Positions 33,334 through 34,496 of a DNA stretch of 64,000 nucleotides are shown in pieces (positions within the stretch are counted from its first letter, which is position 1; the number at the start of each line of letters is the position of its first letter). Below the pieces are notes generated by a model. That model made no database searches, was not told where the DNA came from, and saw only the letters and a list, made by a program, of their open reading frames with translations. The stretch is from Escherichia coli (lineage in GTDB: Bacteria > Pseudomonadota > Gammaproteobacteria > Enterobacterales > Enterobacteriaceae), in assembly GCF_024700885.2 (NCBI RefSeq), contig NZ_CP117016.1. One strand, given 5' to 3'. The position numbers and the translations under genes are program-made.

Positions 33334-33349
33334 ATCTCCTCCTTGTATC

Positions 33350-34495
33350 TTGACAATTGGTTAAAATAACTGTGATTAGATTTGGCAAGGTGTATGCAGC
33401 CCGATCCCTCAAGGGGTTCATAGCCCGTAGCTCAGCGAATGGCGCATACACTGAGCCACTCATCTGAAACCCGAACAGTTGTCAGTACGCCATAACGCAT
33501 TTGCAAGGATGGGTAATCATGAGTCAGCCAGGTTCACTTTGTGTGGATATCGATGTTTCGAAAGCGATACTGGATATTGCCGCCAGCAGCGCTATTGAAC
33601 AATTTTCTGTCGGCAATGACAGTGATGGCTTTGACGCCATCATTGCTGAGTTGAGAATGTACGCCATTGCGCTGGTTTTAATGAAAGCCACTGGAGGACT
33701 TGAAACCGCCATAGTCTGTGCGCTTCAGGCAGAAGGTTTTGAGCTTGCCGTGGTTAACCCCAGACAAGCTCGTGACTTTGCCCGCGCCATGGGATACCTC
33801 GCGAAAACTGATAGTATTGATGCCAGAGTGCTTTCCCAGATGGCTGAGGTTCTCAACCGGCATCCGGAGCGGGAACGCTTTATCAGAGCACTGCCGGATA
33901 CTGAATGTCAGGTTCTCACTGCAATGGTAGTTCGTAGGCGGCAGTTGATTACGATGCTGGTTGCCGAGAGAAACCGGTTGCACCCTGCTCATCCATAGAA
34001 CAGGAAAAGCATTAATATCATCATCAAAGCACTGGAAGACGAGCTTGCGCGACTAGATGCTGACATGAACAGCCATATCCATAGCCACTTCAAAGAGCTT
34101 GCTAAGCGACTGAGCAGTATTAAAGGTGTTGGCACCATGACGGCTGCTGCGCTGCTGGCGGAAGTACCCGAACAGGGTAACCTCTCCAGGCGTGAAATCA
34201 GTGCGCTTGTCGGTATGGTTCCAGTAAACCGGGACTCGGGCACGATGAGAGGGCGACGAACCATCTTTGGCGGCAGGGCTGGTGTGCGAACAGCCCTGTA
34301 CATGGCAGCGCTTGTCGCAACCCGCTTTAACCCGGTAATAAAGGTGTTTTACATGCGACTGCTTGCCGCAGGAAAACCCAAAAAAGTGGCGCTGGTTACC
34401 TGTATACGCAAGCTGCTGACTATCCTGAACGCAATGCTCAGAAAGAACGAAGAATGGAATGAATCGTACCATCACGTTGCTCCATAATTTTTACG
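33350..34495 (+). mobile_element. IS110-family insertion element (boundaries approximate)
   Basis: Contains an IS110-type recombinase ORF with about 170 bp of non-coding sequence upstream; inserted between two paralogous host genes. No terminal inverted repeats are expected for this family. Confidence 0.55.
33519..34487 (+). pseudogene. IS110-family recombinase/transposase interrupted by an in-frame amber codon (TAG at 33996-33998)
   Basis: N-terminal part (MSQPGSLCVDIDVSKAILDIA…, RuvC-like DEDD) and C-terminal part (…[17 protein letters not shown]…[13 protein letters not shown]…) are in the same frame, separated only by one TAG. Confidence 0.65.
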
Positions 34496-34496
34496 T

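What the first reader, a model, noticed from the sequence alone, without database searches (positions are those of the whole stretch)
33334..34496. IS110-family element whose recombinase carries a single in-frame amber codon, with ~170 bp upstream that could encode a bridge RNA
The recombinase is colinear in one frame from 33519 to 34487 except for TAG at 33996-33998, so it is either a recent nonsense mutation or needs suppression. IS110-subgroup elements are now known to encode a structured guide (bridge) RNA in the non-coding end flanking the recombinase; the 33334-33518 segment is non-coding and GC-balanced. The element sits exactly between two paralogous zinc-ribbon genes.
Basis: partly seen in the sequence, partly recalled or inferred. 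Interest (0 to 1): 0.6.

Follow-up and report, generated by a model that had tools for sequence, protein, structure and literature searches.

The report
Dead IS110 element with bridge RNA
This is an ordinary, inactivated copy of an IS110-family (IS621-like) insertion sequence in an E. coli genomic island; it still carries a recognisable bridge-RNA gene, but its recombinase has two knockout mutations, so it is a fossil and not a new system.

Summary
An IS110-family recombinase reading frame (33519-34487, +) is interrupted only by TAG at 33996-33998, and it is preceded by about 175 nt of non-coding DNA.

- **Ends.** Comparison with empty sites puts the element at 33344-34510 (1167 bp), flanked by the CT core dinucleotide. 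It sits in the 13-nt overlap of two paralogous zinc-ribbon genes.
- **Bridge RNA.** The upstream segment does encode one. A covariance model built from relatives, without this copy, hits 33371-33513 at 141.6 bits (E = 2e-31). The same model also finds the validated IS621 bridge RNA.
- **Guides and structure.** The target-loop stem shows many compensatory changes. The right target guide AGCTCAG pairs perfectly with CT+GAGCT of the flank. Guide and target covary across relatives: 43 of 45 positions match, against a mean of 14 in shuffled pairings.
- **Amber codon.** It is a CAG-to-TAG mutation. None of about 665 E. coli genomes carrying this single-copy locus has CAG there.
- **Second lesion.** All copies also have Lys in place of the catalytic DEDD glutamate (IS621 E60). 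The left target guide matches its flank at only 4-5 of 9 positions.

Suppression is therefore not a credible reading. RefSeq already annotates the gene as an "IS110 family RNA-guided transposase, internal stop". Interest is low.

The parts
33342..33343 (+). Left copy of the CT core dinucleotide (the last target bases before the IS)
   Evidence: The empty site reads CATATTTCCTC[CT]GAGTTGTCC, against occupied ...TCCTCCT|TGTATC and ...GTTGCT|GAGCTG. 3041 genomes hold the uninterrupted site.
33344..34510 (+). IS110-family (IS621-like) insertion sequence, 1167 bp including the right CT core copy
   Evidence: The ends come from the empty sites. Homology to the intact 1170-bp pN61 element starts and stops at the same bases.
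33344..33518 (+). Left end (LE), non-coding, 175 nt
   Evidence: The 74-84% identical relatives have LEs of similar length (173-177 nt to the ATG); more distant ones have 215-238 nt.
33362..33367 (+). Candidate -10 box TAAAAT of the bridge-RNA promoter. The matching -35, TTGCT|T, exists only across the RE-LE junction of an excised circle.
   Evidence: Sequence geometry. TAnnnT is kept at this position in most of the closer relatives. No sigma-70 site is found in the integrated LE. Inferred by analogy to IS621 (PMC11208160); not shown.
33371..33513 (+). Bridge RNA gene (143 nt)
   Evidence: Model R1, built without this copy, gives 141.6 bits, E = 2e-31, and no other significant hit in 64 kb. 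The same model hits the IS621 bridge RNA.
33389..33452 (+). Target-binding loop. The stem is 33389-33401 paired with 33441-33452; an inner hairpin is GGG 33414-16 with CCC 33424-26.
   Evidence: RNAalifold and pair counts: 10 of 12 stem pairs have compensatory changes.
33404..33412 (+). Left target guide position (ATCCCTCAA), degenerate in this copy
   Evidence: It matches the flank at only 4-5 of 9 positions in any register, and it lacks the CT core-binding pair. Relatives match at 5-8 of 9. 61 of 72 distinct relatives have CT just before the hairpin.
33429..33435 (+). Right target guide AGCTCAG
   Evidence: It is the reverse complement of CT+GAGCT (the core dinucleotide plus flank 34511-34515), 7 of 7. 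Relatives covary at the same position.
33470..33513 (+). Donor-binding loop. The closing stem is CCC 33470-72 with GGG 33511-13. The left donor guide ACAGTTG is 33475-33481; the right donor guide CAAG is 33504-33507.
   Evidence: ACAGTTG equals the last 7 nt before the core at the right end. CAAG is the reverse complement of CT+TG at the left end. It aligns to the IS621 LDG/RDG.
33519..34487 (+). IS110-family recombinase pseudogene (322 codons)
   Evidence: PGAP calls it 'IS110 family RNA-guided transposase; internal stop'.
33546..33548 (+). Codon 10, GAT (Asp). Three of the four other copies compared and the intact relatives have GGT (Gly). It lies next to the catalytic Asp.
33684..33686 (+). 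Codon 56, AAA (Lys), replacing the DEDD catalytic Glu (IS621 E60)
   Evidence: Alignment to IS621 8wt6_A. Intact relatives have LMEATGG. None of 662 genomes has GAA. In IS621, mutation of E60 abolished recombination (PMC11208158).
33996..33998 (+). In-frame amber codon TAG, derived from CAG (Gln)
34488..34510 (+). Right end (RE), 23 nt. The left donor ACAGTTG is 34502-34508 and the CT core is 34509-34510.
32923..33333 (-). Downstream zinc-ribbon gene (136 aa). Its Shine-Dalgarno region (AGGAGGAG, 33336-33343) is the left target half-site.
34497..34895 (-). Upstream zinc-ribbon gene (132 aa). The native C-terminus ...TTQEEICEF is replaced by ...TAQQLS, encoded partly by the IS right end.

Best explanation
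A bridge-RNA-guided IS110-subgroup insertion sequence, a distant relative of IS621 (E = 3.5e-29; about 30% amino-acid identity by my count of the alignment), once inserted by site-specific recombination at a CT dinucleotide. The site lies in the 13-nt overlap between two co-oriented zinc-ribbon genes of an E. coli genomic island.

By analogy with IS621, the mechanism would be as follows. The excised circle joins RE to LE and creates a promoter (TTGCT|T, 17 nt, TAAAAT). The resulting RNA of about 143 nt binds the recombinase. Its donor loop pairs with the RE-LE junction (ACAGTTG-CT-TG). Its target loop pairs with both strands of the target around the same CT. A DEDD/Ser recombinase tetramer then exchanges strands.

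After insertion the copy decayed. All copies found carry a Gln160 CAG-to-TAG nonsense mutation and a Glu56-to-Lys change at the catalytic DEDD glutamate. The left target guide no longer matches the site. This window's copy adds Gly10-to-Asp. The element is now an immobile, vertically inherited relic in about 12% of complete E. coli genomes.

Shown here: the ends, the core, the lesions, conservation and covariation of the RNA, and guide-target and guide-donor complementarity. Inferred: the promoter, transcription, and the order of the mutations.
For: Ends and core:
- Empty and occupied sites define the ends and the CT core.
- The intact 74%-identical element on plasmid pN61 has the same ends, the same CT core, and CAG at the amber position.

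Inactivation:
- A 63-mer with CAG restored hits 665 genomes, none exactly. There is one chromosomal copy per genome.
- A 63-mer with GAA restored hits 662 genomes, none exactly.
- K56 aligns with IS621 E60. Intact relatives have Glu there. In IS621, mutation of D11, E60, D102, D105 or S241 abolished recombination (PMC11208158).
- Five copies compared share the amber codon, K56 and the left target guide. They differ at 11 other sites within the element.

Bridge RNA:
- Stem covariation on 20 sequences: 95.5% of cells paired against 36-49% in slid controls, and 13 pairs with double changes.
- On 72 distinct sequences: 96.6% paired, and 19 of 21 pairs with double changes.
- Model R1, built without the window, hits 33371-33513 at E = 2e-31.
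- R1 hits the plus strand shortly upstream of the recombinase match (where 1001 is the match start, hits end 921-998) in 79 of 84 searched loci from many phyla.
- R1 hits the validated IS621 bridge RNA at E = 3.4e-6, with LTG, RTG, LDG and RDG in register.
- The right target guide matches the flank 7 of 7. Across 9 non-redundant relatives, 43 of 45 non-core RTG positions match the cognate target, against a mean of 14.4 and a maximum of 24 in derangements.
- The left donor guide equals the RE end, and the right donor guide CAAG pairs with the LE start.

Annotation: PGAP gives 'IS110 family RNA-guided transposase, internal stop'.
Against: - The left target guide fits the flank at only 4-5 of 9 positions. 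The insertion could therefore have been off-target, or guided by an RNA made in trans, instead of reflecting later decay.
- The two core-binding positions of the left donor guide read TC, not CT, in this whole clade. The exact pairing register in the donor loop is not settled.
- The donor-loop stem is almost invariant, so covariation support for it is thin.
- The junction -35 matches only 3 of 6 consensus bases.
- There is no expression or activity data.
Confidence: 0.9

Rival explanations
1. The element is still functional. The amber codon is read through by a natural suppressor tRNA or by programmed readthrough, giving a low, regulated level of full-length recombinase.
For: The frame is otherwise open over 322 codons. 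The element ends, donor loop and right target guide are intact.
Against: - The intact relatives compared encode Gln (CAG) at this codon.
- The catalytic Glu of the DEDD motif is Lys in every copy. In IS621, mutation of E60 abolished recombination.
- There is one copy per genome, always chromosomal and at this locus in every copy inspected, in about 665 genomes. No sign of transposition was found.
- The left target guide is degenerate.
Confidence: 0.02
2. The relic is a non-autonomous but still mobilisable or recombinogenic donor site. Because its ends and donor-binding sequences are intact, a related plasmid-borne element could act on it in trans. Candidates are the pN61 type and the Klebsiella-plasmid type, which have an identical donor core region (CAAGACAGTTG-CT-TGTATCTTG) and the same donor guide ACAGTTG. 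The result could be excision, or plasmid-chromosome fusion.
For: The donor core region and the ACAGTTG guide are the same in the window, pN61 and L007 elements. Intact relatives occur on many enterobacterial plasmids, with 1317 plasmid records matching, including E. coli plasmids. IS621 bridge RNA and recombinase work in trans on a minimal 22-bp donor (PMC11208160).
Against: There is no evidence of excision. Empty sites differ from occupied ones in flanking SNPs, consistent with never-occupied alleles. Among the about 665 genomes, each holds one chromosomal copy, and every copy inspected sits at this locus. Cross-reactivity of a recombinase only 78-81% identical is untested.
Confidence: 0.08
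3. The conserved LE is not a guide RNA. It is only the promoter and 5' UTR (translational control region) of the recombinase gene.
For: It lies directly upstream of the ATG, and its 3' end (GCAAGGATGGG) overlaps a Shine-Dalgarno-like sequence.
Against: - The two short hypervariable blocks inside an otherwise conserved RNA change together with the flanking target DNA. RTG matches 43 of 45 positions against 14 expected, and LTG matches 5-8 of 9 in relatives.
- A conserved block equals the element's own right end.
- The model detects the experimentally validated IS621 bridge RNA.
Confidence: 0.02

Closest known systems
IS621 (E. coli IS110-family element) and its bridge RNA (Durrant et al. 2024, PMC11208160; Hiraizumi et al. 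2024, PMC11208158)
   Same: - Same domain architecture: DEDD RuvC-like domain plus Ser Tnp domain.
- The non-coding RNA is encoded in the LE just upstream of the recombinase.
- CT core dinucleotide.
- Nearly the same donor sequence: ACAGTTG-CT-TGTAT here, ACAGTAT-CT-TGTAT in IS621.
- Same order of LTG, small hairpin, RTG, LDG and RDG, and the same 3' motif UAUUUGCAAGG.
- A -35 element supplied wholly or partly by the RE, so that a full promoter exists only in the circle.
   Different: - E = 3.5e-29; about 30% protein identity by my count of the alignment.
- It lacks the IS621 5' stem-loop. Model R1 aligns from IS621 bridge-RNA nt 16 onward, so the RNA is about 143 nt, not 177.
- The right target guide is 7 nt, against 4 in IS621.
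- The RE is 23 nt, against about 107 in IS621 (stop at L094 2558, LD-CT ending 2665).
- The target is a pyrimidine-rich ...CTCCTC-CT site (the complement of an RBS), not a REP element.
- This copy is dead: amber codon, E56K and a degenerate LTG.
Intact clade relatives on enterobacterial plasmids (pN61 WP_000082158.1; TP6-2 p1 / Klebsiella plasmids WP_004213807.1) and in Citrobacter braakii, Xenorhabdus, Phytobacter
   Same: 78-84% amino-acid identity. Same ends, same CT core, same donor loop and the same RNA architecture.
   Different: They have Gln160 and Glu56, and left target guides that fit their flanks at 6-8 of 9 positions. Their guides are programmed for other targets.
ISEc32 (IS110 family, E. 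coli/Salmonella plasmids)
   Same: It is the nearest PGAP-named IS family hit, at about 66% nucleotide identity over 87% of the element.
   Different: It is too distant to be the same IS. PGAP gives the window's element no specific IS name.

Membership tests
IS110-family recombinase (RNA-guided transposase) | N-terminal DEDD RuvC-like domain (PF01548) plus C-terminal Tnp domain (PF02371) | tested here: met
   PF01548 at E = 3e-17 and PF02371 at E = 1e-18. NF033542 scores 202 bits against a cut-off of 140. IS621 8wt6_A matches at E = 3.5e-29.
IS110-family recombinase (RNA-guided transposase) | Complete catalytic set D-E-D-D plus Ser (IS621 D11, E60, D102, D105, S241) | tested here: not met
   D98/D101 (KTDSIDAR) and the Ser (NRDSG) align to IS621 D102/D105 and S241. 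D12 (GIDVSK) is assigned by motif, because the phmmer alignment starts at residue 29. The Glu position is Lys56 in this locus. It is a homologue, but a catalytically dead allele.
IS110-family recombinase (RNA-guided transposase) | Uninterrupted reading frame | tested here: not met
   TAG at 33996-33998. Relatives have CAG. None of 665 genomes has CAG.
IS110-subgroup element architecture | Site-specific insertion flanked by a 2-nt core with no longer target duplication | tested here: met
   Empty site ...CCTC[CT]GAGT..., occupied ...CCT|TGTATC......GTTGCT|GAG. The same CT core is seen in 14 or more relatives.
IS110-subgroup element architecture | Long non-coding LE upstream of the recombinase. 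In the IS1111 subgroup the RNA is in the RE. | tested here: met
   The LE is 175 nt and the RE is 23 nt.
Bridge RNA | Conserved structured RNA in the LE, with stems supported by covariation | tested here: met
   The target-loop stem has 10 of 12 pairs with compensatory changes, and 95.5% of cells are paired against 36-49% in slid controls. The donor-loop closing stem is conserved but nearly invariant.
Bridge RNA | Homology to an experimentally validated bridge RNA | tested here: met
   Model R1 (this clade, window excluded) hits the IS621 bridge RNA at L094 1416-1571 with 26.7 bits, E = 3.4e-6, with the guide segments aligned. Rfam 15 has no model that detects either RNA.
Bridge RNA | Right target guide complementary to the core plus right target | tested here: met
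   AGCTCAG is the reverse complement of CTGAGCT, 7 of 7. Covariation across relatives is 43 of 45 against a mean of 14.4.
Bridge RNA | Left target guide identical in sense to the left target plus core | tested here: not met
   The window matches at 4-5 of 9 positions in any register, and the core-binding CT is absent. Relatives match at 5-8 of 9. The feature is met by the clade and lost, or never present, in this copy.
Bridge RNA | Donor guides matching the element's own RE and LE ends around the same core | tested here: inconclusive
   LDG ACAGTTG equals the 7 nt before the core at the RE. RDG CAAG pairs with CT+TG of the LE. The two LDG core positions read TC, not CT, so the register at the core is unclear.
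Bridge RNA | Promoter reconstituted at the RE-LE junction of the excised circle | tested here: inconclusive
   TTGCT|T, 17 nt, TAAAAT. The -10 position is kept as TAnnnT in most of the closer relatives. No promoter is found in the integrated LE. This is sequence geometry only.
Bridge RNA | The RNA is transcribed and bound by the recombinase, and it directs recombination | not testable with these tools
   This needs RNA-seq, binding assays and recombination assays.

The most novel reading that the evidence does not exclude
The dead chromosomal copy is still a competent donor site, with intact RE/LE ends and an intact donor loop. It could be excised, or fused to a plasmid, by the recombinase and bridge RNA of related plasmid-borne elements (pN61 type or Klebsiella-plasmid type). 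Those elements share an identical donor core region and the same ACAGTTG donor guide. About 12% of E. coli strains would then carry a latent, RNA-addressable recombination hotspot. A related possibility is that this IS110 clade is programmed preferentially against Shine-Dalgarno complements (...CTCCTC-CT) at gene junctions.
Probability: 0.08. Interest if true: 0.35.

Novelty: new member of a known kind. Interest (0 to 1): 0.18.

Why it matters
It matters little beyond annotation. The locus is a clean natural example of how a bridge-RNA element decays: a nonsense mutation, an active-site substitution and loss of the left target guide, while the donor loop, right target guide and ends remain.

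The clade alignment and covariance model made here give a second enterobacterial bridge-RNA architecture, besides IS621, with target sites defined from natural insertions. This RNA is shorter (about 143 nt), has a 7-nt right guide and lacks the 5' stem-loop.

The work also shows that a negative Rfam 15 search says nothing about bridge RNAs, because Rfam 15 does not detect the validated IS621 RNA either.

Tried and rejected
- **Rfam scan of 32000-36000 at E <= 10.** No relevant hit. This is not evidence against a bridge RNA, because the same scan misses the validated IS621 bridge RNA.
- **Single-sequence folding.** The z-score is only -1.9, so the thermodynamics alone are uninformative. Covariation was needed.
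- **Search for a close intact copy (>90% identity over the full length).** None was found. The only >=99% record in the plasmid set is a 1.4-Mb record that looks like chromosome. The best intact relatives are about 82% identical in nucleotides. The ancestral left target guide therefore could not be read directly. The idea that it was ATTCCTCCT, as in Citrobacter L012, is only an inference.
- **Sigma-70 scan of the integrated element.** It finds no LE promoter.
- **RNAalifold pairing of TTG(T) with (G)CAA inside the donor loop.** I did not adopt it as structure. These bases are the donor guides, and the pairs never covary.
- **Amber suppression, or a split recombinase made from the two ORFs 33501-33998 and 34065-34487.** Rejected because of E56K.

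Full report
**What is there.** The window is E. coli DNA from a genomic island full of IS debris. The same locus in RefSeq genomes is flanked by an ISL3 pseudogene, two zinc-ribbon genes, an inovirus-Gp2-family gene and an Hha-family gene. Translating 33519-34487 (+) gives one 322-codon frame with a single stop, TAG at 33996-33998. With that codon read as Gln, the protein has the two IS110 domains, PF01548 and PF02371. It passes the NCBIfam equivalog NF033542, 'IS110 family RNA-guided transposase', at 202 bits against a cut-off of 140. It also matches the solved IS621 recombinase at E = 3.5e-29. PGAP already annotates the gene in identical loci as 'IS110 family RNA-guided transposase; internal stop'.

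**True ends and insertion site.** 3041 complete E. coli genomes carry the two zinc-ribbon genes without the element.
- Empty site: ...CATATTTCCTC[CT]GAGTTGTCC...
- Occupied site: ...CATATCTCCTCCT|TGTATCTTG...(IS)...CAAGACAGTTGCT|GAGCTGTCC...

The element is therefore 33344-34510 (1167 bp), bounded by a duplicated CT core, the same core as IS621. An intact, 74%-identical element on plasmid pN61 starts and ends at the same bases and is also flanked by CT. At least 14 further relatives are flanked the same way.

In empty sites the two paralogous genes (32% identity, E = 1e-16) overlap by 13 nt. The IS sits in that overlap, immediately upstream of the Shine-Dalgarno/ATG of the 136-aa gene (AGGAGGAGATATG on the minus strand). 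It replaces the last residues of the other gene, changing ...TTQEEICEF to ...TAQQLS. 'Exactly between' should read 'inside the overlap'.

**The amber codon and other lesions.**
- The intact pN61 and L007 relatives have CAG (Gln) where the window has TAG.
- A 63-mer with CAG restored finds the locus in 665 genomes, never as an exact match. Each genome has one chromosomal copy.
- Codon 56 is AAA (Lys) in the motif LMKATGG, where intact relatives have LMEATGG. This residue aligns with IS621 E60, the second residue of the DEDD active site. In IS621, mutation of D11, E60, D102, D105 or S241 abolished recombination (PMC11208158).
- A 63-mer with GAA restored finds 662 genomes and again no exact match.
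- Five copies compared base by base share TAG, K56 and the same left target guide. They differ at 11 other sites within the element. One of these is a G10D change, next to the catalytic Asp, present in this window but in only one of the other four copies compared.
- No full-length copy more than about 82% identical exists in the plasmid collection. Among the species-representative genomes the closest intact relative is about 84% identical in amino acids.

The recombinase is dead, and its two main lesions are shared by every copy found. Suppression is not a viable reading.

**The upstream RNA.** Rfam 15 gives nothing here. It also gives nothing on the validated IS621 bridge RNA, so that negative carries no weight. 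I collected 80 loci encoding relatives from one genome per species and several E. coli and plasmid copies.
- The 143 nt before the ATG are conserved, except for two short hypervariable blocks.
- RNAalifold on 20 sequences gives a long stem closing the first loop, with 10 of 12 pairs showing compensatory changes. It also gives a small GGG/CCC hairpin inside that loop and a CCC/GGG stem closing the second loop.
- 95.5% of cells are paired, against 36-49% when partners are slid. No shuffle out of 500 reaches the observed covariation.
- A covariance model built without the window's sequence hits window 33371-33513 (+) at 141.6 bits, E = 2e-31. No other significant hit occurs in the 64 kb.
- The model hits the plus strand shortly upstream of the recombinase match (where 1001 is the match start, hits end 921-998) in 79 of 84 searched loci from many phyla. 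On those hits, 19 of 21 pairs show double changes.
- It also finds the experimentally validated IS621 bridge RNA (26.7 bits, E = 3.4e-6). The IS621 LTG, RTG, LDG and RDG align to the corresponding blocks of this clade.

**Guides.**
- The second hypervariable block (33429-33435, AGCTCAG) is the exact reverse complement of CT+GAGCT, the core dinucleotide plus the right flank. In pN61 the same position reads ATGTAAG, the reverse complement of CT+TACAT of its own flank.
- Over 9 non-redundant elements with known flanks, 43 of 45 non-core positions of this block match the cognate target. Mispaired controls give a mean of 14.4 and a maximum of 24.
- The first hypervariable block equals the left flank plus core at 5-8 of 9 positions in relatives. 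In the window it matches at only 4-5 of 9 in any register, and it lacks the CT that 61 of 72 relatives have just before the hairpin.
- In IS621, pairing to both strands of the core is strongly preferred and mismatches are poorly tolerated (PMC11208160). This guide is therefore probably non-functional. I read this as post-insertion decay, but that is an inference. An off-target or trans-guided insertion is not excluded.
- In the second loop, ACAGTTG (33475-33481) equals the 7 nt before the core at the right end (34502-34508). CAAG (33504-33507) pairs with CT+TG at the left end. The core-binding positions of the left donor guide read TC in the whole clade, so the exact register there is open.

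**Promoter.** No sigma-70 site is found in the integrated LE. In an RE-LE circle junction, TTGCT|T, then 17 nt, then TAAAAT would form. The -10 position is kept as TAnnnT in most of the closer relatives. IS621 shows the same logic: TTGCAG in the RE, 17 nt, then TATTAT in the LE (PMC11208160). This step is inferred from sequence only.

**Comparison and verdict.** The element works like IS621 and belongs to the same family and subgroup. Its RNA is a shorter homologue of the IS621 bridge RNA, without the 5' stem-loop and with a 7-nt right target guide. As a copy it fails three functional membership features: an intact ORF, a complete DEDD motif and a cognate left target guide. It is a fossil, present as one chromosomal copy per genome (at this same locus in every copy inspected) in about 12% of complete E. 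coli genomes. The suggestion that the amber codon might be functionally interesting is not. Novelty is that of one more member of a known kind, and interest is low.

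Noticed in passing
L011 (JAIJJM010000559.1, 'MAG: Collinsella sp.'), whole 2199-bp contig: This contig is 100% identical to the E. coli IS110-relic locus. It is probably an E. coli contig mis-binned into an actinobacterial MAG.
   Followed up: no
L010 1501-1558; L003 2501-2709; L004 2001-2645 and L008 1501-1681: Other relics of the same IS110 clade recur in E. coli islands. A 58-nt solo LE piece lies in an island region with truncated hha and Gp2-family genes, and this type of hit fills many rows of the spread list. A 209-nt 3' fragment lies upstream of kpsF in Nissle 1917. 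A truncated, frameshifted copy lies between yfjI-family and inovirus-Gp2-family genes.
   Followed up: partly
window 33331-33343; L012, L018 and L028 left flanks: Several clade members sit on ...GCTCCTCCT / ...TCTCCTCCT. This is the complement of a strong Shine-Dalgarno sequence followed by a start codon on the opposite strand. Left target guides across 72 relatives are C/T-rich (...CCCCT). This could mean RBS-directed targeting, or only a sequence preference of the clade. It was not tested statistically.
   Followed up: partly
L094 1300-2700 (IS621 in E. coli E2865): Rfam 15 detects the REP-derived naRNA4 next to IS621 but has no family that matches the IS621 bridge RNA. Rfam negatives are therefore uninformative for this RNA class.
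   Followed up: yes
window 31258-32640: An ISL3-family transposase pseudogene, with a frameshift and internal stops, lies immediately left of the zinc-ribbon gene pair. In the equivalent RefSeq locus the wider region also holds IS4, IS3 and IS66 remnants and truncated metabolic genes.
   Followed up: no
L022 642-787 (minus strand): There is a second, weaker bridge-RNA-model hit (44.6 bits) in opposite orientation about 70 bp upstream of the main hit in Enterobacter cancerogenus. It may be a remnant of an adjacent element.
   Followed up: no
window 32923-33333 and 34497-34895 (minus strand): The two paralogous zinc-ribbon proteins have no NCBIfam family. In empty sites they form a translationally overlapping pair. 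The IS uncouples them and rewrites the C-terminus of the upstream one, yet both ORFs remain open in the copies inspected.
   Followed up: partly
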